Shown here: positions 20,997-40,433 of the stretch, one piece after another | Layout of the letters: every line of letters starts with the position of its first letter | Position numbering within the stretch: the first letter of the stretch is position 1 | From: an uncultured virus (IMG/VR IMGVR_UViG_3300029953_000002) | Taxonomy: Duplodnaviria > Heunggongvirae > Uroviricota > Caudoviricetes | Length of the DNA stretch: 41,879 bases | IMG/VR virus record: IMGVR_UViG_3300029953_000002 | Strand: one strand, 5' to 3' | Notes under the pieces: generated by a model | Told to the model about the DNA's origin: nothing | Databases searched by the model: none | The model's input: the letters and a program-made list of their open reading frames with translations, nothing else | Made by a program: the position numbers and the translations under genes

Positions 20997-22859
20997 TTAC
21001 TGCCAGCGGCTGAAACCACGATTTGCACCAGACGGTGTCGCGTTTTGATTATAACCACTGCGGAAGATACCGCTCGATTCAGGGGTCAACAAAGTATGAC
21101 CCGAGAACTGTGAGCGAGCACGTTCGTAATTACCAAGATCCTGATACGAGTATACAGGCTTCAGAACCAAACCAGCTTCTTGGCAACCCTTAACTAGTGC
21201 GTTAATGAAACCGACTTCAAACGTGACGCGGCGAGCGTAGCCTGTGAATACCGCGTTATTGCAAATTGATTGGATGATACGTTTCCGTTCATACAAGCGT
21301 TTCGGCAGAGGGATATGTGTGCTTGCAAAAGAATCAGACCACAACTTAATTGCACCTGGGTCTTGTGCGCCGACACAATTCAACACTGCCAAATAATCAA
21401 TATCGCGAATGTCTGCACGTTCACCACGAGAGTTCGTGTAATGACCCAGATGGATACGATTGTATTCATCAGTTGCGACACGGCCCTTTGGATCAAAATA
21501 CTTTACAAAGTTACCATTCGTAAGCTCGTTAGCGGCTTTAAGAATAGCGATATTTGCTTGGGTATTCCCAGCGGCAGCTGCCGAGAATACTTCATTGAAC
21601 CAGGTCTGAGCACCGCATTCCGGCACATCCAAGGACACCACAAGACCAGGACGAATTGTTGCCTTAACCAACTGCCCGAGATTTTCTGGTTTAAACTTAT
21701 CGGCATGTGTGTCAATGCGTTGACCAACGCCACTTGGATCATTGCTAAAGTTAACTTCGATGCCAATAGCACCGATATCACGGAAGTCTACGTCGCCAGA
21801 AGGAAAATCCCTTGGACGGAAACCTTGAACCCAAGCGTTGTTTTCGCCGAGGCCAACGACTGGAACTAGCGCCAATAATTGCGCTGGAATAGTAAGCAGT
21901 TCGGTTGATTCCATCGTTGTTGCAACAAACCGAGCAGCGTAACGCTGAAAAGATTGTTGTGTTGGATCTGGAATACCGTACAAGTTTTGTGGCGCAACGA
22001 TAGGGTCCCAGAAGATATCCAGGAAACCACCAATTCGCGCGATAGGTGCTTCACGTCCAGCATCTTGCTGTTGTGTTTGTTGCGACTGCACTGGTGCAGC
22101 GGTAAAATCCAATACGATATCACTGCGCAATGGCGCACCGACCGCATCTTGTTGTTGTGGCATTGCAAACTGTGTTCGCACTGACAAAGTGGAATCATTC
22201 TTAGCGTTTGCAATATTGATATCTTCAAAGTTCTTGCTATTAATTTCAAGCTCAGAAGTACATGCAAAAATAGCATTTGCAATCAATACGTGCAATGCCG
22301 ATTTGTCTTCAACGTTAAAGTCCTTAGGAACAACACAAGCACCTGCGTTACGTGGTGTGTCTTGCGGAAACAACCGCTGAACGTAACCAAGCACAACACC
22401 CTTCAAAGTATCGTTGCAGGAATCACCAGCAGTATAGAGAATCTCAACGGATTGACCGTTAATCATTTCTGGCTTAGGTGTGCGAATATCCGCAGACGCT
22501 TCGAGCAACAACGAGTGATACGCAACACCCAACAATGGGTTCTGCTTATCACGAACAGCGAGAATCAAAATAGAAATCGACAAGTTTGGTGTTTGTTCTT
22601 TTTCAATTGGAACCAAATTGATTTCAAAACTCTTATCGGCTTTTTCTGTGATCATCTCAGTCATTGCTTTGGTGATCTTGTTCAATGCTTCCGATGCCTG
22701 TGTGCGACTGAATGCAGGCCGTGACAACTTGCGCAGATTGGTGAAGCTGTACCCAGTGCTATCGGCTTTGGTTTGATGATCACGATTAGGTGCAAAACTA
22801 CCAGTAGGGTTGTTTTGAACTTCTGCACCATTGCCAGTACTTTCGTCTTTAATAGCCAT
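20997..22859 (-). CDS. chmA: Chimallin, major phage nuclear shell protein (phiKZ gp54-like)
   Basis: 620 aa directly upstream of the gp55-like RNAP gene; flexible N- and C-terminal tails; relatively GC-rich coding sequence; own early motif and terminator. Confidence 0.85.
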   Translation of the reverse strand: MAIKDESTGNGAEVQNNPTGSFAPNRDHQTKADSTGYSFTNLRKLSRPAFSRTQASEALNKITKAMTEMITEKADKSFEINLVPIEKEQTPNLSISILILAVRDKQNPLLGVAYHSLLLEASADIRTPKPEMINGQSVEILYTAGDSCNDTLKGVVLGYVQRLFPQDTPRNAGACVVPKDFNVEDKSALHVLIANAIFACTSELEINSKNFEDINIANAKNDSTLSVRTQFAMPQQQDAVGAPLRSDIVLDFTAAPVQSQQTQQQDAGREAPIARIGGFLDIFWDPIVAPQNLYGIPDPTQQSFQRYAARFVATTMESTELLTIPAQLLALVPVVGLGENNAWVQGFRPRDFPSGDVDFRDIGAIGIEVNFSNDPSGVGQRIDTHADKFKPENLGQLVKATIRPGLVVSLDVPECGAQTWFNEVFSAAAAGNTQANIAILKAANELTNGNFVKYFDPKGRVATDEYNRIHLGHYTNSRGERADIRDIDYLAVLNCVGAQDPGAIKLWSDSFASTHIPLPKRLYERKRIIQSICNNAVFTGYARRVTFEVGFINALVKGCQEAGLVLKPVYSYQDLGNYERARSQFSGHTLLTPESSGIFRSGYNQNATPSGANRGFSRWQ

Positions 22860-32110: not shown

Positions 32111-33130
32111 TTACAGAACAAGTCCTGTATCGGTATCTGGCTGATCTACTTTTGTCAAGATGCTTTCACTTGCTAAACGTGCTTTTTGTCGCGCAGCCGC
32201 GTCTGCTAGAATTTTTGACAGGTGATTGTATTCACCTTTAATAATTCCATCACTAGTAACAAAGTGCATTGGAATACGGCCCTTCAGCGTGTCAGTACAG
32301 CTTTCTGGGATATAACCATTACATTGATAATCTGGAGTGATTGGGAACGGTGTTGTCATTCCTTCTACAGCCAAGGTAGCAACGCTGATAATGTTTCCAA
32401 TGTTGCTAGGGATATCATCGGTCTTTTCAATCAACGACAACGCGACGAGCTGTGGTGTCTTGAACGAAGTCACTTTGTTGAAATTCAACCAATGAGCTAG
32501 ATCTTTAGAATCCAACTCTAGATTTTCACGGGAGAACAAAACACATAAACCAGTGATAATTTCAATGATGCCGCGATCAGCAACAATGCGTGGATCTGGG
32601 TCATCGCGTGATGTTACGTTCTTATTTTGGACGTAATACATCACAACAGGCAATTTACGCAAGCCTGCAATTGACTCATACGACTTCAATGTCTTCAGTG
32701 TGTTTTCAGCAGCAAGAGCCGATTCAATTCCGCCAATAGCAATACAAACTGTTGGTGTATTTTGTTCTAACAATTCACTCATGATCAATGGCGCAATAAC
32801 AGAACCAGAGCCACCGCCTGTTGACGACAGAACAATAGTAAGATCAGCCGATGGAAACTTCTGAAGAATAGCGCGAATGTGACGGCTAATCTCAGCATGA
32901 TTTTCACGACGAACCTTTCCAGACCCATCAAGTCCTTCAAGTACATAGGAGTTATCAGAATTGATATGCTTATGTGAATTAGATTTACTTGCGTCAACAT
33001 AAACAACTTGCAGCATTGCAAAGCCATCTTCAACCTGACCTTTATGCTTTTCTAATTGATTACCAATATTCCAACCAGCACCACCACAGCAAATAACAAG
33101 TACTTCACCTTTTGGCGTCGACATTTCCAT
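32111..33130 (-). CDS. phuZ: Phage tubulin PhuZ
   Basis: CGGAGWNIG, GLDGSGKVR, tubulin signature STGGGSGS, LDSKD (T7 loop), acidic tail DTDTGLVL. Confidence 0.93.
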   Translation of the reverse strand: MEMSTPKGEVLVICCGGAGWNIGNQLEKHKGQVEDGFAMLQVVYVDASKSNSHKHINSDNSYVLEGLDGSGKVRRENHAEISRHIRAILQKFPSADLTIVLSSTGGGSGSVIAPLIMSELLEQNTPTVCIAIGGIESALAAENTLKTLKSYESIAGLRKLPVVMYYVQNKNVTSRDDPDPRIVADRGIIEIITGLCVLFSRENLELDSKDLAHWLNFNKVTSFKTPQLVALSLIEKTDDIPSNIGNIISVATLAVEGMTTPFPITPDYQCNGYIPESCTDTLKGRIPMHFVTSDGIIKGEYNHLSKILADAAARQKARLASESILTKVDQPDTDTGLVL

Positions 33131-34207: not shown

Positions 34208-35173
34208 CTAGCTGTACTTCACCGGTAAATCGTTATACTGCTGAATCAGGCTATCGTCTATCCTCCCGATGTTTAAAGACTGACTAGAACAGTCAGTGCC
34301 GATCATCCATTTAAGCTGTTCTTCATTTAATGAAACACAACCATAAGGAAGATGTTTCGTTTCAAATAAAGCCGCACGCAGCTTGTATGGTCCACTCCAT
34401 CGTACTAATGGTTTCCCTATGTTGTCTGGGTACTCCTGCCAAACAGCAACTAAACCAATAATAGATTTAGTAATAATCATCCGGCGACCATACGGATCGT
34501 AACAATGCCTCTGCTCCCCTCTCTCCAGATAATTGTACGTCTCTCTATCTATTTGCAGGTTATCGAAGCTACCGTTCGGAGATTCCCATTCAGGATTATA
34601 TCTGAACATAATCGGTCCCATGAGTTCGAACTTCTTAATAAACAACTGCATCTCAGGGTAACGATTCAGTAAATTCATCGTTAATGAATCCGTGAGGTTA
34701 TCCTTAACAGTTTTCTGTTCAGTAGTCCTTGGGGTGTGTCGTGTTGATCGCATTACTTCAGGCATGTAATGTTGTTTTGTACTGCCGTCGCCAAAATTAT
34801 CAAAACTAACTGAATCCCCATTTGGTTGTAGGACAGTAACTGTCCGTGATACTTCGTTTGGCTCTGGTACAAATAACTTCATACCAGCAGGTAGTGATTC
34901 TTCTATTGGAGACTTAACAATAGGCGTAGGTTCAGCTTTCTTCTCTTCCTGTACTTCTTTCTTAACAGGTTGTGGTTTGGCTTCTTCCTTATTAATCATA
35001 CCGGCTTCGGTTAATACAAACTCCACGAAATGAACCAACCATTTTCTTGGATAGATGACAAAGACGACTTTTGTCTTTGGCTTAACGATCTTTGTTTGTT
35101 TGCTCTTTGATTCTTCTTTCTTTTTGAGTTCCCGCTTATAAGCAGAACTCCATACTTTTGAAAAACTGCTCAT
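34208..35173 (-). CDS. Hypothetical early-region protein
   Basis: 321 aa, AGGAG RBS, terminator at ~34176-34204. Confidence 0.75.
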   Translation of the reverse strand: MSSFSKVWSSAYKRELKKKEESKSKQTKIVKPKTKVVFVIYPRKWLVHFVEFVLTEAGMINKEEAKPQPVKKEVQEEKKAEPTPIVKSPIEESLPAGMKLFVPEPNEVSRTVTVLQPNGDSVSFDNFGDGSTKQHYMPEVMRSTRHTPRTTEQKTVKDNLTDSLTMNLLNRYPEMQLFIKKFELMGPIMFRYNPEWESPNGSFDNLQIDRETYNYLERGEQRHCYDPYGRRMIITKSIIGLVAVWQEYPDNIGKPLVRWSGPYKLRAALFETKHLPYGCVSLNEEQLKWMIGTDCSSQSLNIGRIDDSLIQQYNDLPVKYS

Positions 35174-35236
35174 AGCACACTCCTATCTATAAAAAAAATT
35201 GTTCGAAGAGAACTGTTAGATTCTCTTCGATTTTAT

Positions 35237-35401
35237 TTATGCCGCTGATGCAGCTTTTGATACGGCTTGTGCCGCGAGGTCGGCGGCGTTTGTTTCGGAT
35301 TCCTTAGTGTTCTTGTCCTTTTCTTCTTGGAGACGCATTTCCGTTACCACATACGCACATCCAAGAAACCCAACAAGAACGCCCATGATGAATTTGCCCA
35401 T
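35237..35401 (-). CDS. Small single-TM protein (54 aa, not in track)
   Basis: MGKFIMGVLVGFLGCAYVVTEMRLQEEKDK...; AGGAG RBS. Confidence 0.7.
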   Translation of the reverse strand: MGKFIMGVLVGFLGCAYVVTEMRLQEEKDKNTKESETNAADLAAQAVSKAASAA

Positions 35402-35402
35402 G

Positions 35403-35627
35403 TTATAATACTCCTAAGTTAATGTCTTTCGATTCGATTGTTTTTCCATTAGTCGATTTCTCAACTAATACTTTTACCATCTTTTCACGCTGTGCTATTT
35501 TATCAGCTTCGGCTTTAGCTAGTCCTGCTTTGACCAAGACTTCACCTTTTAGGTAAATCTTCTGTCCAATTTGTGCACCTATTTGTTGGACGATACCGCC
35601 TATAAATTTCTCAATTAAAACGTTCAC
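35403..35627 (-). CDS. Small hypothetical protein
   Basis: 74 aa, GTG start behind AGGAGAGG. Confidence 0.65.
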   Translation of the reverse strand: MNVLIEKFIGGIVQQIGAQIGQKIYLKGEVLVKAGLAKAEADKIAQREKMVKVLVEKSTNGKTIESKDINLGVL

Positions 35628-35719
35628 GTCCTCTCCTTTTTATTTAGATTAGCGATCACGCTGTATCGCTAATCTAAACGACCTGTGAGGGCACAGGTCG
35701 TCTTGCCGATGTTTGTGGG

Positions 35720-35890
35720 TTACGCTGCAGGTGCGTCTGTTGCTGGCGCTGGTGTAGCGACATCGCCTACTGTTGCGGTTGTGGTCTTGTTGCCAAAGCT
35801 GATGTGGTCTTTTGCGAAATAGGCAGCTACACCACCAACAACGATAACGCCAAGAGCGATGAGGCCATTCTTCAGATTGATGTTCAGCAT
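35720..35890 (-). CDS. Small single-TM protein
   Basis: MLNINLKNGLIALGVIVVGGVAAYF; start 35890 behind AAGGA, downstream of the early motif. Confidence 0.7.
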   Translation of the reverse strand: MLNINLKNGLIALGVIVVGGVAAYFAKDHISFGNKTTTATVGDVATPAPATDAPAA

Positions 35891-35949
35891 GATATTTTCC
35901 TTTTGGGTGAGTAATAAATTTAGATCAAGCAAGAGAATTCTTACTAAAT

Positions 35950-35986
35950 CTCACAACTGTTATATATGTCTGAAATATTCTAGGAT
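35950..35986 (-). promoter_or_regulatory. Early promoter repeat, copy 1
   Basis: Minus strand ATCCTAGAATATTTCAGACATATATAACAGTTGTGAG. Confidence 0.8.
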
Positions 35987-36057
35987 CAAGTTTTCAAACA
36001 CGCTCCTTACTTACTTTACTACATGTACTTCTACTACAGATTTTTTACAATTACGAA

Positions 36058-36348
36058 CTACGCTGGATTGAGGTTTTCGGTAAACGTAACATCACTTACC
36101 GAATGACTTTCTTTAATGATTGAGGCTACCTTGCTTTCAAACTCCTCCATGAGCCTTCTGGCTTCTTGTGTGTGAAACTTGGCCTCCTCCATTGTTGTTT
36201 CGTCGTCGCAGTTACGTTCACCGGACAACAGCTCTGCTACTTGTTTTGCGATCTTGCGATTGCGAAAAGCAGTTGCTACTATTCCAGTTACTGCCAAGGT
36301 TACTACGCTGCCAATTGCTACGAGGATTTTTGTTTTTGCGGATGTCAT
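36058..36348 (-). CDS. Small single-TM protein with coiled coil
   Basis: ILVAIGSVVTLAVTGIVATAF followed by RNRK. Confidence 0.7.
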   Translation of the reverse strand: MTSAKTKILVAIGSVVTLAVTGIVATAFRNRKIAKQVAELLSGERNCDDETTMEEAKFHTQEARRLMEEFESKVASIIKESHSVSDVTFTENLNPA

Positions 36349-36417
36349 GGTAATTATCCTGAAATTGAAATAGTTTGAAATACGAGTTAAGTTATTTCTT
36401 AAAGAAGTATTGTGATT

Positions 36418-36708
36418 CTACTTCTCTGTGTAGTTCTTTTGTGATCTTGATGATTTTTTTTCATCGCCATTCAAATAAGCTTCTTGAAGACGATCTTGAA
36501 ACTTTTGAATATCGGCTTTGCTGAAAGCAAAACCAACTCCATTGTTTTCCTTCAAGATAATTTTCAGATGAACAATAGACCGCATTGCCGGTATCGTGCT
36601 ATCTAGCACTTTCTTTTGTTTTTCTTCTTTGTTCTTCGATGAAAAAAGCTTAGCGACGCCACCTCCTATTGCTAGTACGGCTAAGCCAATAACGGCTTTT
36701 ATGTTCAT
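36418..36708 (-). CDS. Small single-TM protein
   Basis: MNIKAVIGLAVLAIGGGVAKLF; start 36708 behind CAGGAG. Confidence 0.7.
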   Translation of the reverse strand: MNIKAVIGLAVLAIGGGVAKLFSSKNKEEKQKKVLDSTIPAMRSIVHLKIILKENNGVGFAFSKADIQKFQDRLQEAYLNGDEKKSSRSQKNYTEK

Positions 36709-36730
36709 GATGCACTCCTGATGTGTTAAG

Positions 36731-36931
36731 TTATAGATTGTGTTCTGCTTTATAACGACGAAGAGCATCTGGTTCCATATTACGTTCGTATTCTGCTTCT
36801 TGTTCCATTCTAGCGCAATAGCTATTTATCTTGGCTTTATGTTCAGACTCTTTTTTCATTTCAAAATACTTAAGAATAAGAACACCACCAGCAATACTAA
36901 CTACTGCTAATGTTACATGAACTCTCCACAT
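36731..36931 (-). CDS. Small single-TM protein
   Basis: MWRVHVTLAVVSIAGGVLILKYF; start 36931 behind CAGGAG. Confidence 0.7.
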   Translation of the reverse strand: MWRVHVTLAVVSIAGGVLILKYFEMKKESEHKAKINSYCARMEQEAEYERNMEPDALRRYKAEHNL

Positions 36932-37082
36932 GGCATTCTCCTGATTTAAATGTAAATAATAAAAAAGACCATTAACAATAAATAAAACCAACCTTATTGT
37001 TAATGGCTGGAAATCGTTTTATGCGTGAGGGCTTTCAAAAGGAGGTTATATGTCCTAATGGCCCTCGGTAAGCACGGATAGA

Positions 37083-37685
37083 TCAGGAAGTTAAGTTCCT
37101 GATTTCAGCAAGGGCCTTCCGGCCAATGTTTGCTATCCGCATCAGATCGTTGTCGCTCATCTTCGACAACATATCCACTGTTACCTTCCCGCCAAGTTCG
37201 TCGGTAAGATTATTCTTGACTCTTACTGATAACTTAGAGTCTTGAATCAGTGTTGTATTAGGCACCCGCGTTAAAACGGCAGCGCTCTCTGGTACTATAA
37301 ATCCACGATGTTGAAACACCGCTACTTTATGAGTACCGCCATCAGCCGTAGCTGCCTCAGAGCTTACGCGAAGCGTAAAGGCATACATCGGTATGATACC
37401 GACCTTGATTAACGCATCTTCCAGCGCTGACATCAGGTAAGGCGCACCTCCAATCATTGCGGAGGTAATGGGTGGTTCACCCAGTGCTCTTGCGTATTCT
37501 CTATGCGCGACAGCTATATCAGCAATGCTGGTCGCTGCCTCACGAATGAAAACTGATGTCGGCATACTGTCAAAGGTCAACAGCGCTATGAGTTGAAGCA
37601 GGAACCCACCAGTAACATCAACCAAACCAGCGAGCAGCTGGTCCTTTGTTGCTTTGTGTTGCGTTAAATTCAAGATTGCATTCAT
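37083..37685 (-). CDS. Csx20-like (putative ring nuclease) domain fused to an RNAP alpha-CTD-like domain
   Basis: N-terminal LNLTQHKATKDQ...AMIGGAPY...GIIPMYAFTLRVSSE...DG..K...FQHRGF; C-terminal IQDSKLSVRVKNNL...TVDML...NDLMRIANIGRKALAEI (alpha-CTD HhH pattern). Confidence 0.7.
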   Translation of the reverse strand: MNAILNLTQHKATKDQLLAGLVDVTGGFLLQLIALLTFDSMPTSVFIREAATSIADIAVAHREYARALGEPPITSAMIGGAPYLMSALEDALIKVGIIPMYAFTLRVSSEAATADGGTHKVAVFQHRGFIVPESAAVLTRVPNTTLIQDSKLSVRVKNNLTDELGGKVTVDMLSKMSDNDLMRIANIGRKALAEIRNLTS

Positions 37686-38097
37686 TTTGTTTCTCCAGTA
37701 TAAAAGGGTGTGGGTTTTTAAAGCTACTCGTGTGAGGGCAGTGGTATATCACTACGCATAGTGACCCGTTTCTCTGACCCTCAGGCTAATAGCCTAGTGG
37801 ATAATAATCCAGGATGTTCTTGAAATAAGTTTTGTTGCGTTTTACGAGGCCGCCGCCTAGATACACATTGGATTCCCTTCAAGAGCGTTAAGAAGTAAGC
37901 AAGCTCCCGATTGCTTACTTCTTAACTCATTATCAGTTAGTGCAAACCGTTAAGGCTTAGGCTGCTTTCGCTTTGCGTTTGCCGGTCCAAATCTATCTCG
38001 CCCCTGCATACGACAGTATTGTGCTTTCGCTGGCAATATCAAATCTATATACATTGGTGACAGTTTGTTATAGTGTCTTTCCATATAACTACTAAAT

Positions 38098-38134
38098 CTC
38101 ACCTCCAGTATATATGTCTGAAATATTATAGGAT
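38098..38134 (-). promoter_or_regulatory. Early promoter repeat, copy 2
   Basis: Minus strand ATCCTATAATATTTCAGACATATATACTGGAGGTGAG. Confidence 0.8.
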
Positions 38135-38168
38135 CAAGTTTTTCTCAGACATATACACTGGTTGTTTC

Positions 38169-38651
38169 TTAGTACCTATTCCAATTAGCGTCCCATTCGA
38201 TATCGCTTCGAAGGTGACGAAGTTTAGAATCCATCGACGACTTGATTTCTCGAGTAGCGTCTCTGACAGCGTTGTTCACTTCTGCCTTCATCGCATTGAT
38301 GATCTCAGCCTTCATTTCCTCGACTGCCGCACGTTCGTTGAAACGAGTAGCGTATTCTGGATCAGCCGCCATACGTGCAATATGTAAATCATGCTCTTGT
38401 TTACGCGCTTCCCTAGCTGCTTTGCAATCTTCTGCATTCTTACGATTACGCAAGATGATAATCTTTGCGGCATCAGATACAAACGCAATGTCCTTCAGAC
38501 CGATTTCAACAGTATATACTTCAGTATTTAGCGCATCTTCGGCAGCACGTATTTCCTCACCTCTCTTGCGTTCTTGTATTTTACTGTAGACACCAGCACT
38601 TACTAATGCTGTAAGTCCGGTTACCAGCAAACCAGCAATGATCTTGTTCAT
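38169..38651 (-). CDS. Single-TM coiled-coil protein
   Basis: MNKIIAGLLVTGLTALVSAGVY then a charged helical region; GGAG RBS. Confidence 0.75.
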   Translation of the reverse strand: MNKIIAGLLVTGLTALVSAGVYSKIQERKRGEEIRAAEDALNTEVYTVEIGLKDIAFVSDAAKIIILRNRKNAEDCKAAREARKQEHDLHIARMAADPEYATRFNERAAVEEMKAEIINAMKAEVNNAVRDATREIKSSMDSKLRHLRSDIEWDANWNRY

Positions 38652-38686
38652 TTTTTTATTCTCCAGTATTGAAATAGATTTAAATC

Positions 38687-38806
38687 TTACTGACGCCAGT
38701 ATGCAGCGTCACCTTGTTGTTTGTTTGCGATTGTCCTGTTTATATACTCGATTGCGTAATGCGCAGCAATCGCTGACACAACACAGATTACAATACTCTT
38801 AATCAT
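38687..38806 (-). CDS. 39-aa hydrophobic peptide (not in track)
   Basis: MIKSIVICVVSAIAAHYAIEYINR...; AAGGAG RBS. Confidence 0.6.
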   Translation of the reverse strand: MIKSIVICVVSAIAAHYAIEYINRTIANKQQGDAAYWRQ

Positions 38807-38821
38807 GACTGACTCCTTAGC

Positions 38822-38950
38822 TTAGAAACGATGACAGGATTCGTGGATTGTGAAAAGCAGATTACCGATGGATGAACCGATAATCATTCCACCGATAACA
38901 TTGAACATGAGTTCGTATTCAGTAATGACATTTTTCAATTTCGTAAACAT
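38822..38950 (-). CDS. 42-aa hydrophobic peptide (not in track)
   Basis: MFTKLKNVITEYELMFNVIGGMIIGSSIGNLLFTIH...; AAGGGG RBS right after the early motif. Confidence 0.55.
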   Translation of the reverse strand: MFTKLKNVITEYELMFNVIGGMIIGSSIGNLLFTIHESCHRF

Positions 38951-38985
38951 AATTTAACCCCTTAGGCAAGATACTTCTTTACTAT

Positions 38986-39022
38986 CTCGCCTAAGGTATA
39001 TATGTCTGAAATATTCTAGGAT
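38986..39022 (-). promoter_or_regulatory. Early promoter repeat, copy 3
   Basis: Minus strand ATCCTAGAATATTTCAGACATATATACCTTAGGCGAG. Confidence 0.8.
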
Positions 39023-39027
39023 ACTAA

Positions 39028-39210
39028 TCAGCTTCTAGCGGCAATGATTGCTTTTGTAACCTTCCATCCAATCGCGTATCCTACAACAGCAGATACAGAT
39101 AAAATACAAAGAAAGACTGGTATACTCATACCTTTCTTTTCTTCATATTCTTTTACTTCTGCGTCAGCTTGTTCCGGTGTTATGTGTACGTTTTTCATGA
39201 CATTCTCCAT
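39028..39210 (-). CDS. Small protein with C-terminal TM helix
   Basis: IPVFLCILSVSAVVGYAIGW. Confidence 0.65.
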   Translation of the reverse strand: MENVMKNVHITPEQADAEVKEYEEKKGMSIPVFLCILSVSAVVGYAIGWKVTKAIIAARS

Positions 39211-39332
39211 TGATTAAAAAAGTGTTTTGAGTAACGATATTTCTATCAAGACTCGCAACTACTACGTATGTTTGAAAAAATCTAGAATCTATTTAATTTA
39301 AAATCAATAACGAATAATGAATTCCACTCAAT

Positions 39333-39369
39333 CTCACCAAGATTATATATGTCTAAGATATTCTAGGAT
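39333..39369 (-). promoter_or_regulatory. Early promoter repeat, copy 4
   Basis: Minus strand ATCCTAGAATATCTTAGACATATATAATCTTGGTGAG. Confidence 0.78.
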
Positions 39370-39415
39370 AGTGTTTTTAACGGCATAAATGCCAAGCTAT
39401 TCACTTGGCTATTTT

Positions 39416-39740
39416 TATAATGTTGTCATTTTTACAACCTGCAATTAATATACTTAAGTATACTATTGGGGCTCCGCCCCCAAAATCCACTAAGGGAAGA
39501 CTGCCCAACAGGCTTACCGCTTATGATCATTTTATATAATTGCAGGTTTTAGTTTCTGCAAATAATAGATTATGACAGTAAAAAATTACTTTAATTGTAT
39601 TTTTGATAATTAATATTTCAATTATTGATTTTTATTTTAAGAAAGTAATTTTGATTATATTTATTATAATCAATACAAAAATCTATTGGAGCCTTTAAAG
39701 TTTACTCATTGGGCCGTGTTGTCAAAATGACAACATTATA
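39416..39740. repeat. Inverted-repeat-flanked AT-rich non-coding element
   Basis: 22/23-bp terminal inverted repeat TATAATGTTGTCATTTTnACAAC; nested 12-bp IR AACCTGCAATTA / TAATTGCAGGTT. Confidence 0.75.
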
Positions 39741-39803
39741 TTTAGTTATTAAATTAGCGTTATTATTGTGAACGTTCTTACATTTAATAAAAAGGAATTC
39801 GCT

Positions 39804-40433
39804 ATGAGTTTACTAAGATTGAGATTAGCCGTCGAGGCTTACGATGCCCCTCAAGACACAATCCCTAACGATGGTGTTAACCAAACAATCGTAATGAAAG
39901 GTCCTTTGTCTGATATATATACAAAGGCACTGAATATTGCCTATGCAAAAAAAGATAAACTTACTGGTGAAGTAGAACCAGTAGAAGAAACTAATATCGT
40001 ACAAGATACTAAGGTAGGTGGCGCAATGCCACCTGCTAATAATATTCTTCAAGATCCAGTAGCAATCGAAAATTTAGTTAGTGCGTTAGAAAGTCAAGCT
40101 ATTGATGCAGCATTAATGGAAAAACTTTCTCGTACTCTAAACGATGCATCAGACGATGCTCCACCTACAGATTCGTTTCAGACGGTCTATGGAGTGTCTA
40201 GAGACGATTTAAATGAAGAGGACCTAGTTTCTATAGCAAAAGACGTATCGACTCAACCTGAGTCCACTAGCGAATATATCGTCGTGATTGATCGTACAGG
40301 ATGTAGTAGCGATGACCCAGAACAAGTAATGAAATTATCTAGCGCAATTGAAAGTTTAATCGATGCGTTTGGTGGTAAGGTATTTAGTAGCTTAGAAGAT
40401 TACGTACATTACCAAGCTACGCTATTGGGTTAA
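39804..40433 (+). CDS. Putative virion head protein
   Basis: Start 39804 behind AAGGA; acidic; AVE/ALE/AIE sites fit the S/A/G-X-E prohead-protease motif of phiKZ-like phages. Confidence 0.6.
   Translation: MSLLRLRLAVEAYDAPQDTIPNDGVNQTIVMKGPLSDIYTKALNIAYAKKDKLTGEVEPVEETNIVQDTKVGGAMPPANNILQDPVAIENLVSALESQAIDAALMEKLSRTLNDASDDAPPTDSFQTVYGVSRDDLNEEDLVSIAKDVSTQPESTSEYIVVIDRTGCSSDDPEQVMKLSSAIESLIDAFGGKVFSSLEDYVHYQATLLG

What the first reader, a model, noticed from the sequence alone, without database searches (positions are those of the whole stretch)
37083..37685. Early gene fusing a Csx20-like ring-nuclease domain to an RNAP alpha-CTD mimic
Seen: two-domain protein. The C-terminal ~55 aa follow the alpha-CTD pattern (LSVR..N.L....TV..L.....DL..I.NIGRKAL.EI). 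The N-terminal ~130 aa follow the pattern I recall for Csx20-type CARF-like proteins (N-terminal H-x-x-T-x-x-Q, P.YA.T.R...E....DG...K...F.H..F), a group reported to degrade cyclic oligoadenylates. Known: the phage nucleus blocks DNA-targeting CRISPR but not RNA-sensing type III systems. Inference: an anti-type III ring nuclease or cyclic-nucleotide sensor coupled to a decoy for host transcription activators or UP elements, linking immune signalling to transcription control.
Basis: inference. Interest (0 to 1): 0.72.

Follow-up and report, generated by a model that had tools for sequence, protein, structure and literature searches.

The report
Phage Csx20-like ring nuclease fused to alpha-CTD
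A nucleus-forming jumbo phage from peat carries a gene joining a relative of the CRISPR signal-destroying enzyme Csx20 to a copy of the DNA-binding tail of the bacterial RNA polymerase alpha subunit, probably to blunt type III CRISPR alarm signalling.

Summary
ORF 37083-37685 (-) encodes a 200-aa two-domain protein in a chimallivirus; the window also holds chimallin, PhuZ and split RNAP genes.

Residues 148-197 are a bona fide RNA_pol_A_CTD domain: Pfam 31.1 bits against a cut-off of 23.8, and the best fold match is a B. subtilis alpha-CTD (TM 0.77, rmsd 1.6 A).

Residues 1-132 belong to a large family, labelled PF27247 in the protein database. It is homologous to canonical Csx20 over the whole domain (hhalign 96.8%, E 2e-10). 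It falls below NCBI's Csx20 cut-off (22 against 70 bits) and is not next to type III loci. The phage copy keeps 39 of 41 strongly conserved family positions, including H10, R106, K120 and H126, which canonical Csx20 shares.

Standalone relatives are common in phages: 156 IMG/VR hits, two of them in other chimallivirus-like contigs. The alpha-CTD fusion was seen only in this phage lineage. Independent peat assemblies confirm it.

The most likely function is a dimeric cOA ring nuclease, or a binder, that counters type III CRISPR, with two tethered AT-rich-DNA-binding modules. The "early gene" and "decoy" claims remain untested. This is a new variant of a known kind.

The parts
37083..37685 (-). 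Whole gene: 200 codons plus stop. Two-domain protein (Csx20-like domain, linker, alpha-CTD).
   Evidence: ORF listing. Database cluster P0001 carries PF03118 and PF27247. Spanned without indels by contigs of other runs.
37290..37685 (-). Residues 1-132: Csx20-like (CARF-like, Rossmann-type) domain. Motifs NLTQH-x-AT-x-x-Q, AMIGGAPYLM, YAFTLR, DG...K...F-x-H-x-GF.
37245..37289 (-). Residues 133-147: predicted flexible linker.
   Evidence: In the AF2 model pLDDT falls below 50 for residues 143-155 (block means 87, 44, 50). Homologues end at about residue 130.
37086..37244 (-). Residues 148-200: RNAP alpha-CTD-type helix-hairpin-helix domain. R155, N158, N186, G188 and E194 are invariant with four bacterial RpoA CTDs and the phage's second alpha-CTD; K190 is conserved with the RpoA CTDs.
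   Evidence: Pfam PF03118 31.1 bits against cut-off 23.8. Alignment A3. Foldseek top hits are all RNAP alpha-CTDs, TM 0.77, rmsd 1.6 A.
37686..37701 (-). Translation-initiation region (ATACTGGAGAAACAAA before the ATG). It is shared with the neighbouring gene 38169-38651.
   Evidence: Direct repeat family D10, 37685-37701 and 38653-38669, 88% identity. Sequence.
37887..37926 (-). 16-bp hairpin in the structured 275-nt leader between the upstream small ORF and the gene. Tentative terminator, attenuator or processing signal.
   Evidence: RNA fold of 37686-37960 (-): MFE -76.9 kcal/mol, z -3.26, 0 of 200 shuffles fold as well. No T-run follows the stem, and the consensus terminator scan did not call it.
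38109..38134 (-). Nearest upstream copy of a repeated AT-rich promoter-like motif (ATCCTAtAATATTTCAGACATATATA). Tentatively an early (virion-RNAP) promoter of the transcription unit.
   Evidence: 4 copies in the window against 0 in 100 shuffles. 7 copies in the 114-kb record, all on the minus strand, 0 in the control. A review states that jumbo phages carry conserved AT-rich motifs upstream of early operons (PMC7598289, passages).

Best explanation
The gene encodes a phage counter-defence protein. Its N-terminal Csx20-like domain forms a homodimer with a CARF-like pocket lined by H10, T13, Q16, Y101, R106, K120 and H126. In the cytoplasm it binds, and most likely cleaves, cyclic oligoadenylates (cA4, perhaps cA3). 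The host's type III CRISPR Cas10 makes these signals when it senses exported phage mRNA. Removing them keeps CARF/SAVED effectors silent and prevents abortive infection.

Each subunit carries an alpha-CTD-type helix-hairpin-helix domain on a flexible linker of about 15 residues. The dimer therefore displays two AT-rich-DNA-binding modules, the same layout as the alpha2 dimer of RNA polymerase. I think these modules most likely hold the enzyme on accessible (host) DNA and/or compete with host RNAP alpha at UP-like sites.

Shown here: the domain identities, the intactness of the family's conserved residues, the reality of the fusion, and its presence in RNA libraries. Inferred: cOA as ligand, cleavage, dimerisation, DNA binding, and the timing of expression.
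For: Homology to Csx20:
- Whole-domain homology to canonical Csx20: hhalign 96.8%, E 2.2e-10.
- 42 of 42 family members hit CAS_Csx20.
- Csx20 degrades cA4, and cA3 at high enzyme concentration, in vitro (10.1101/2024.09.24.614671, passages).

Conserved residues:
- 39 of 41 positions conserved at >=85% in 416 family domains are identical in the query. The other two are V->L21 and S->T104.
- H10, T13, Q16, G79, G80, Y101, R106, D115, G116, K120, F124 and H126 are also the majority residue in 8 canonical Csx20 proteins.

Dimer logic:
- 20 relatives are tandem duplications. In 16 of the 20, exactly one repeat keeps H10, while 372 of 377 single-domain members keep it.

Phage and anti-defence setting:
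- 156 tblastn-confirmed relatives occur in IMG/VR.
- Of 50 such virus records checked, G410 has a strong chimallin hit. G406 has a weak chimallin-like hit plus a strong jumbo-phage RNAP beta hit.
- A relative lies in Pasteurella phage Pm86. Passages of a 2026 preprint describe csx20 homologues in P. multocida acr-aca14 operons (10.64898/2026.07.27.740549).
- Type III is the CRISPR type that works against nucleus-forming phages (10.1101/2022.06.20.496707, abstract and passages).

Alpha-CTD:
- Pfam score above cut-off and fold match.
- R155, N158 and G188 are invariant with RpoA CTDs, and K190 is conserved. By my recollection these align with the E. coli DNA-contact residues R265, N268, G296 and K298.

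Parallel architecture:
- P0269 is a Csx20-like domain followed by two C-terminal HTH domains.

Reality of the gene and possible expression:
- Contigs of 2 further DNA runs span the ORF.
- A 903-nt contig of an RNA library covers 36779-37681 with 0 differences.
- 6 RNA runs hold 53-88% of the sampled words.

Composition:
- Gene GC is 47.8%, against 38.1 +/- 4.2% for 29 other ORFs. GC3 is 46.8% against 29.9 +/- 6.7%. This fits a horizontally acquired accessory gene.
Against: - The query scores only 22 bits against NCBI's Csx20 model (cut-off 70), and its relatives score 25-41 bits. One genome, G005, holds both a canonical Csx20 (138 bits) and a member of this family (34 bits), so the two are distinct paralogous families.
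- The family is not CRISPR-linked. None of 150 neighbour proteins from 35 cellular loci hit Cas10, Csm or Cmr families.
- Only 8 of 34 family-bearing genomes have a Cas10 over cut-off anywhere, and none of the Saccharibacteria or Paceibacteria-type genomes does. In these genomes the gene often sits near a TrmB-type regulator (10 neighbour proteins in 9 loci), which suggests a role unrelated to type III.
- No catalytic residue of Csx20 has been mapped experimentally in the passages I read.
- Host and host defences are unknown. The closest cultured relative is Burkholderia phage FLC9, with 44% chimallin identity.
- A DNA-binding tail is hard to reconcile with a genome enclosed in a protein shell.
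- RNA-library contigs do not prove transcription.
Confidence: 0.5

Rival explanations
1. cOA sensor-regulator, working like Csa3. The Csx20-like dimer is a ligand sensor, and any cleavage only resets it. cOA binding changes how the two alpha-CTD modules engage DNA or RNAP partners. The phage would thus read the host's type III or CBASS alarm and alter transcription. A pure sponge, binding without cleavage, is a sub-case.
For: - The architecture of a ligand-binding CARF-like domain plus a DNA-binding domain recurs in P0269 (Csx20-like plus 2 HTH).
- The flexible linker would allow ligand-dependent repositioning.
- The related Csx15 showed little or no ring-nuclease activity in the first study and was discussed there as a possible sponge (10.1101/2024.09.24.614671, passages).
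Against: - More than 1,400 relatives are standalone proteins of 120-140 aa without any output domain, so the domain's core job does not need one.
- The two histidines shared with the active enzyme Csx20 are kept.
- An alpha-CTD binds DNA with low sequence specificity (recalled), which makes it a poor basis for gene-specific regulation.
- The phage genome is shielded by the nuclear shell.
Confidence: 0.15
2. The family is not cOA-related. It would act on another nucleotide or RNA-end substrate, such as another cyclic nucleotide or 2',3'-cyclic phosphate ends, or have a housekeeping role. The phage protein would couple that activity to DNA or the transcription machinery.
For: - There is no type III neighbourhood in 35 cellular loci.
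- Many members lie in small CPR genomes without a detectable Cas10, near TrmB regulators and ClpP.
- Single loci sit beside PNK3P/AAA_33 (L099) or an ATP-dependent ligase (L084).
- The query is sub-threshold against the Csx20 model.
Against: - Residues shared with canonical Csx20 span the whole predicted pocket.
- The family is frequent in phages in variable, moron-like contexts. No neighbour cluster is shared by more than 4 of 80 loci.
- It occurs in an anti-CRISPR operon context. In L094 a Cas_Csy2-like 407-aa neighbour resembles that operon.
- Many CPR MAGs are incomplete, so absence of Cas10 is weak evidence.
Confidence: 0.2
3. The main function is interference with host transcription. The Csx20-like domain serves chiefly as a dimerisation scaffold that presents two alpha-CTDs. 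These mimic the RNAP alpha2 tail pair and titrate UP elements or alpha-CTD-binding activators.
For: - The layout matches RpoA: dimerising N-domain, flexible linker, alpha-CTD.
- The same phage has a second alpha-CTD gene directly downstream of a copy of the promoter-like motif.
- Caulobacter jumbo phages also encode alpha-CTD proteins.
Against: - A mere scaffold would not keep 39 of 41 conserved family positions, including both histidines.
- The residue aligned with E. coli E261, the sigma contact (numbering recalled), is K151. The stretch aligned with the 287 determinant differs from the gammaproteobacterial RpoA.
- Chimalliviruses transcribe with their own RNAPs (PMC7598289, passages), so shutting off the host is useful but not required.
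Confidence: 0.1

Closest known systems
Csx20, a CRISPR-associated cA4 ring nuclease (NCBIfam NF040559; Hoikkala et al., 10.1101/2024.09.24.614671 / PMC12409355)
   Same: - Homologous over the whole ~125-aa domain (hhalign 96.8%).
- Shared H-x-x-T-x-x-Q, G-rich loop, YA-x-(T/S)-x-R, DG...K...F-x-H motifs.
- Same size as the standalone members.
- The paper reports Csx20 in 5 of 28,114 phage genomes (passages).
   Different: - Scores 22 bits against the 70-bit cut-off.
- Canonical invariant positions D69, F77, T98 and R125 are not matched.
- Canonical Csx20 sits next to Cas10. In 3 genomes (G016, G230, G377) the Cas10 hit lies 0.9-1.7 kb from it on the same contig. This family does not.
- The window protein has an extra alpha-CTD.
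AcrIII-1 / Crn2 (DUF1874) viral ring nuclease
   Same: Same proposed job: a small dimeric phage protein that destroys cA4 to disarm type III CRISPR (described in passages of 10.1101/2024.09.24.614671).
   Different: No Pfam hit to it was found here. AcrIII-1 has no DNA-binding appendage.
C-terminal domain of the bacterial RNA polymerase alpha subunit (Pfam PF03118; e.g. PDB 1z3e_B, 3k4g, 9zum)
   Same: - Pfam score above the gathering cut-off.
- Same helix-hairpin-helix fold in the model (TM 0.77).
- R, N, G, K and E positions conserved.
- Preceded by a flexible linker after a presumably dimerising domain, as in RpoA.
   Different: - No alpha-NTD, so it cannot assemble into RNAP.
- 26-30% identity to four RpoA CTDs.
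- Two-residue insertion (LTDELGGKV).
- K instead of E at the position aligned with E261 and A instead of S at S299 (E. coli numbering recalled).
Csa3-type CARF-HTH regulators and Acr-Aca fusion proteins (e.g. AcrIIA1); both recalled, not retrieved here
   Same: The architecture pairs a cOA-binding or anti-CRISPR module with a DNA-binding module in one chain. A sibling with HTH domains exists (P0269).
   Different: The DNA-binding module here is an alpha-CTD HhH, not an HTH or wHTH. No sequence relation was found. Autoregulation would require entry into the phage nucleus.

Membership tests
Csx20 (NCBIfam NF040559, CRISPR-associated ring nuclease) | Score at or above the curated model cut-off (70 bits) | tested here: not met
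   22 bits, E 1.6e-4, residues 91-129 only. Relatives score 25-41 bits over model positions 2-121, while canonical proteins score 124-165 bits.
Csx20 (NCBIfam NF040559, CRISPR-associated ring nuclease) | Homology across the whole domain with shared conserved residues | tested here: met
   hhalign 96.8%, E 2.2e-10, 118 columns. H10, T13, Q16, G79, G80, Y101, R106, D115, G116, K120, F124 and H126 are shared. 42 of 42 members hit the model at E<=0.01.
Csx20 (NCBIfam NF040559, CRISPR-associated ring nuclease) | Gene located in or beside a type III CRISPR-Cas locus | tested here: not met
   The window is a phage. In 35 cellular loci of the family, 0 of 150 neighbour proteins hit Cas10, Csm or Cmr families. 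A Cas10 over cut-off is present in 8 of 34 family genomes. In G003, G004 and G005 it lies on a different contig from the family gene.
Csx20 (NCBIfam NF040559, CRISPR-associated ring nuclease) | Cleaves cA4 to linear products | not testable with these tools
   Needs purified protein and HPLC or LC-MS.
PF27247 (label precomputed in the protein database; the model is not in the local Pfam copy and I do not know its name) | Carries the family label and aligns with its members | tested here: met
   The cluster of the window protein and all 120 listed hits carry PF27247.1. 1,596 representative clusters match at E<=0.001. 39 of 41 conserved positions are kept.
CARF/SAVED superfamily (fold level) | Rossmann-like CARF fold that forms a dimeric ligand pocket | tested here: inconclusive
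RNA_pol_A_CTD (Pfam PF03118) | Score above the Pfam gathering cut-off | tested here: met
   31.1 bits against 23.8, E 1.9e-7, residues 147-197. The genome search gives 33.1 bits.
RNA_pol_A_CTD (Pfam PF03118) | Alpha-CTD helix-hairpin-helix fold | tested here: met
   The model of residues 138-200 has pLDDT 85. Foldseek ranks 1-48 are all RNAP alpha chains, best TM 0.77, rmsd 1.6 A, prob 1.00, with E-values only 0.011 and up because the domain is short. Caveat: the 6-row alignment used for folding contained 4 RpoA CTDs.
RNA_pol_A_CTD (Pfam PF03118) | DNA-contact residues (E. coli R265, N268, G296, K298, S299; numbering recalled) | tested here: met
   R155, N158 and G188 are invariant and K190 is conserved in alignment A3. 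S299 is replaced by A191. Actual DNA binding was not tested.
Bacterial RpoA (RNAP alpha subunit) | Alpha N-terminal assembly domain preceding the CTD | tested here: not met
   Residues 1-132 are Csx20-like. The RpoA NCBIfam models match only residues 144-198, at 13-26 bits against cut-offs of 228-523.
AcrIII-1/Crn2 (DUF1874) and Crn1/Crn3/Crn4 ring nucleases | Sequence membership | tested here: not met
   There are no Pfam, NCBIfam or PADLOC hits to these families at E<=10. A PDB profile search with A1 found nothing.

The most novel reading that the evidence does not exclude
The protein is a signal-gated mimic of the RNA polymerase alpha tail pair. A CARF-like dimer senses, and then clears, the host's cyclic-oligoadenylate alarm. 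In response it switches two tethered alpha-CTD modules on or off DNA or alpha-CTD-binding factors. Host immune signalling would thus be wired directly to transcription control by a nucleus-forming phage. The second alpha-CTD gene of the same phage would belong to the same takeover toolkit.
Probability: 0.12. Interest if true: 0.85.

Novelty: new variant of a known kind. Interest (0 to 1): 0.6.

Why it matters
Type III CRISPR is the one CRISPR type known to defeat nucleus-forming jumbo phages, because it senses exported mRNA. I found no description of a counter-measure from these phages in the papers searched:
- 'Csx20', 18 papers
- 'ring nuclease' with 'jumbo phage' and 'type III', 21 papers
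- 'alpha-CTD' with 'phage-encoded' and 'mimic', 2 papers
- 'PF27247', 0 papers

A Csx20-like gene occurs in this chimallivirus and, as a standalone form, in two other chimallivirus-like contigs. This gives a directly testable candidate anti-type III factor.

The work also marks out a very large, mostly phage- and MGE-borne sister family of Csx20 that current Csx20 models miss. It counts 1,596 clusters at 50% identity.

Finally, it presents an unusual fusion to an RNAP alpha-CTD. This may show how phages reuse this domain and whether ring nucleases are localised or regulated.

Tried and rejected
- Megablast of 36000-39000 against cultured phages gave no match.
- PHROGs gave only a 0.11 E-value hit for the protein.
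- A word-based search with the alpha-CTD part alone (residues 138-200) found only the protein itself.
- Foldseek of the full model against the PDB gave nothing at E<=0.001. Crn1-type entries did not appear among the rows shown by VIA-align.
- A PDB sequence-profile search with A1 returned 0 hits.
- The ESM Atlas gave no usable feature hit. Its own model of the protein is poor (pLDDT 0.50) and the structural neighbours are meaningless.
- Complex prediction for the N-domain homodimer: the job was lost.
- Rfam scan of 35000-40000 gave only sub-threshold chance-level hits. There are no tRNAs in the window.
- The sigma-70 promoter and intrinsic-terminator scan of 36700-38700 gave counts no higher than shuffles for promoters (3 against 4.0 +/- 2.3). 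The three terminator-like sites lie inside the finding's own ORF (two sites) and the downstream ORF 36731-36991 (one site).
- A possible degenerate copy of the promoter motif at 37802-37815 (3 mismatches of 14) is not above chance: 13 matches against 10.4 +/- 3.5 expected. A gapped pattern found nothing.
- The neighbour-gene clustering over 80 loci found no widely conserved partner gene (at most 4 loci per cluster).
- The tree of 418 domains rooted on canonical Csx20 puts the query on a long branch with weak support (0.13-0.67). No donor can be named.
- The supplementary table of phage ring nucleases in PMC12409355 could not be read. I therefore cannot say whether the paper's five 'phage Csx20' belong to this sister family.
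- RNA-library contigs cannot show transcript ends, strand or timing.
Full report
**What is there.** The window is part of a 114-kb IMG/VR virus record estimated at 43% complete. It encodes chimallin (20997-22859), PhuZ tubulin (32111-33130), several split multisubunit-RNAP beta subunits and a DNA polymerase. It is therefore a nucleus-forming jumbo phage (chimallivirus). The closest cultured relative by chimallin is Burkholderia phage FLC9, at only 44% identity. ORF 37083-37685 on the minus strand encodes 200 aa.

**C-terminal domain.**
- Pfam RNA_pol_A_CTD matches residues 147-197 at 31.1 bits (gathering cut-off 23.8, E 1.9e-7).
- Eight RpoA NCBIfam models match the same stretch at E<=0.01, and 10 of 11 PDB sequence hits are RNAP alpha chains.
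- I aligned the domain with four bacterial RpoA CTDs and a second phage alpha-CTD. R155, N158, L160, L181, N186, G188 and E194 are invariant, and K190 is conserved with the RpoA CTDs. By my recollection of E. coli genetics, R155, N158, G188 and K190 align with the DNA-contact residues R265, N268, G296 and K298. S299 is A191, and the sigma-contact residue E261 is K151.
- A model of residues 138-200 (pLDDT 85) retrieves RNAP alpha CTDs in every listed row from rank 1 to rank 48. The best is 1z3e_B (TM 0.77, rmsd 1.6 A, probability 1.00), with E-values of only 0.011 and up because the domain is short. The small alignment used for folding contained RpoA sequences, which favours that fold.
- The full-length model, made without any RpoA sequence, also places helices there at pLDDT 71-85.

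**N-terminal domain.**
- Direct scans are weak: NCBIfam CAS_Csx20 gives 22 bits (cut-off 70) over residues 91-129, and PADLOC Csx20 gives E 3.1e-5.
- The domain nevertheless belongs to a very large family. A word-based search finds 1,409 proteins at E<=0.001, all 120 listed carrying the precomputed label PF27247.1 and most of 120-140 aa. An exhaustive HMMER search finds 1,596 clusters at 50% identity.
- All 42 aligned members hit CAS_Csx20 at E<=0.01, best 4.9e-18.
- I collected canonical Csx20 proteins from Campylobacterota genomes, where 52 of 401 genomes hold a match over the cut-off. I aligned 19 of them and compared the profiles. hhalign gives probability 96.8%, E 2.2e-10, 118 aligned columns.
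- One genome, G005, holds both a canonical Csx20 (138 bits) and a member of this family (34 bits). The two are distinct paralogous families, not one.
- Across 416 family domains, 41 positions are conserved at >=85%, and the phage protein is identical at 39. The exceptions are V->L21 and S->T104. H10, T13, Q16, G79, G80, Y101, R106, D115, G116, K120, F124 and H126 are also the majority residues in canonical Csx20.
- The AF2 model of residues 1-130 is very confident (pLDDT 95-98) and is an alpha/beta Rossmann-like domain.

**What is known about Csx20.** Passages of Hoikkala et al. (10.1101/2024.09.24.614671; published as PMC12409355) report four things:
- Purified Csx20 degrades cA4, and cA3 at higher enzyme concentration.
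- It is the commonest ring nuclease in type III loci.
- Csx20 HMMs hit five of 28,114 phage genomes.

A 2026 preprint (10.64898/2026.07.27.740549, passages) notes csx20 homologues in P. multocida acr-aca14 operons and suggests they act in counter-defence. My tblastn finds a relative in Pasteurella phage Pm86 (41% over residues 61-130) and one in Rhodothermus phage RM378 (38.6% over residues 4-130).

**Where the family lives.**
- In IMG/VR, 156 stretches are confirmed relatives. Their gene neighbourhoods vary, and no neighbour cluster is shared by more than 4 of 80 loci.
- I checked 50 of these virus records for chimallin. G410 has a strong hit (E 5.7e-70). G406 has a weak chimallin-like hit plus a strong jumbo-phage RNAP beta subunit (E 1.2e-141). 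Both encode standalone forms of 120 and 134 aa.
- In cellular genomes, the scan found 50 loci. I scanned 150 neighbour proteins from 35 of them and saw no Cas10, Csm or Cmr family. I saw instead phage or MGE genes (Mu Gam, ERF, HNH, SLT). In Saccharibacteria and Paceibacteria-type genomes I saw TrmB-type regulators (10 neighbour proteins in 9 loci) and ClpP.
- A Cas10 over cut-off is present somewhere in 8 of 34 family-bearing genomes.
- By contrast, in 3 genomes (G016, G230, G377) a Cas10 hit lies 0.9-1.7 kb from the canonical Csx20 gene on the same contig.

**Architecture clues.**
- Twenty relatives are tandem duplications. In 16 of the 20, exactly one repeat keeps H10, whereas 372 of 377 single-domain proteins keep it. 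This argues that the working unit is a dimer and that H10 is functionally critical.
- One relative, P0269, carries two C-terminal HTH domains after the Csx20-like domain. This parallels the phage's alpha-CTD fusion.
- The alpha-CTD fusion itself was seen only in this phage lineage: the window, the 100%-identical fragment L002, and database cluster P0001.
- It is real. Contigs of two other DNA runs span the ORF without indels. An RNA-library contig of 903 nt covers 36779-37681 with no difference. The phage occurs in peat and permafrost metagenomes under 20 study codes, including 6 RNA libraries.
- The gene is a compositional outlier: GC 47.8% against 38.1 +/- 4.2% for other ORFs, and GC3 46.8% against 29.9 +/- 6.7%. 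This fits acquisition by transfer.

**Expression context.**
- A promoter-like AT-rich motif of 24-26 nt occurs 4 times in the window (0 in shuffles) and 7 times in the 114-kb record, always on the minus strand.
- This fits the class of early-promoter motifs described for RNAP-encoding jumbo phages (PMC7598289, passages).
- The nearest copy (38109-38134) lies about 424 nt upstream of the ATG. A 44-50-codon ORF and a 16-bp hairpin within a structured leader (z -3.26) lie in between. 'Early' is therefore plausible but not shown.

**Interpretation.**
- The N-domain's intact family residues, its homology to an enzyme that cleaves cA4, the phage and anti-CRISPR-operon distribution of the family, and the specific vulnerability of nucleus-forming phages to type III CRISPR (10.1101/2022.06.20.496707, abstract and passages) together point one way. 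I think it most likely (about 0.5) that this is a dimeric cOA ring nuclease acting as an anti-type III factor.
- The alpha-CTD keeps the DNA-contact residues but not the sigma-contact residue. I therefore favour AT-rich DNA binding (tethering, or competition at UP-like sites) over activator mimicry.
- Autoregulation of the Aca kind is less likely, because the phage genome sits inside the shell.
- The main doubt is that this sister family is not CRISPR-linked and is common in small genomes where no Cas10 was found, so its substrate may differ.
- The alternatives are a sensor or sponge (0.15), a non-cOA substrate (0.2), and a scaffold for an alpha-CTD decoy (0.1).

**Novelty.** Phage-borne Csx20 homologues are already in print. 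Three things were not found in the literature searches named above: the fusion to an RNAP alpha-CTD, the occurrence in chimalliviruses, and the delineation of a large non-CRISPR-linked sister family. The verdict is a new variant of a known kind, with interest 0.6.

Noticed in passing
Outside the window: G000:C1:38135-38326 (-) = L082:1501-1692 (-); ORF L082:1654-1956 (-): The same phage has a second RNA_pol_A_CTD match (50.7 bits). It straddles an in-frame TAA. A 100-aa ORF ends in ...NPVFDMLI*, and the alpha-CTD continues in frame for 69 codons without a start codon. A copy of the promoter-like motif (3 mismatches) lies about 50 nt upstream of the ORF's ATG. This could be readthrough, a pseudogene or a sequencing error; which one is undecided. 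The closest phage-database relatives are two unannotated gut 'Bacteriophage sp.' records.
   Followed up: partly
window 35942-35994, 38090-38142, 38978-39030, 39244-39296, 39325-39377 (motif on the minus strand): A 53-nt repeat family has a 24-26-nt near-invariant AT-rich core. It is followed by a GGAG-type RBS in front of small minus-strand genes. There are 7 copies in the 114-kb record, all on one strand. It is probably the early (virion-RNAP) promoter of this phage. Metagenome contigs break at it.
   Followed up: partly
window 35720-35932, 36058-36348, 36418-36768, 36731-36991, 38169-38651, 39028-39210 (all minus strand): The gene is embedded in a run of small ORFs whose translations each show one hydrophobic, membrane-span-like stretch near the N-terminus followed by a charged region. 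None of those scanned has a PHROG hit. This was read from the translations only.
   Followed up: no
window 37686-37960 (-): The 275-nt leader upstream of the gene folds much better than shuffles (z -3.26). It contains a perfect 16-bp hairpin (37887-37926) and a second long-range stem just before the RBS. There is no Rfam match.
   Followed up: partly
L116:10554-12056 and L120:1964-3460 (Saccharibacteria-type genomes): Directly downstream of the Csx20-like gene lies a ~500-aa protein with a C-terminal Cas_csx3 (Crn3-type) domain. In L116 a MYG1-family exonuclease follows it. Two ring-nuclease-like domains thus sit side by side in genomes where no Cas10 was found.
   Followed up: no
L089, L100, L103, L108, L109, L112, L118, L119 (CPR-type genomes): A TrmB-family regulator of 243-278 aa recurs within three genes of the Csx20-like gene, sometimes with ClpP. 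This hints at a conserved chromosomal, non-CRISPR role of the family in these small genomes.
   Followed up: no
Proteins P0002-P0006, P0121-P0128, P0262 and others: Tandem-duplicated (pseudo-dimeric) Csx20-like proteins. In 16 of 20, the histidine of the NLTQH motif survives in only one repeat, and the other repeat usually has F. P0262 adds a long pentapeptide-repeat domain.
   Followed up: partly
L094:10554-12124 and Pasteurella phage Pm86 (L176:854-2446): In both, the Csx20-like gene is followed by a ~110-aa ORF and a ~406-aa ORF. In L094 the latter hits Cas_Csy2 (E 4e-6). This resembles the AcrIF6 / Cas5-IF-homologue operon described in the 2026 Aca14 preprint.
   Followed up: no
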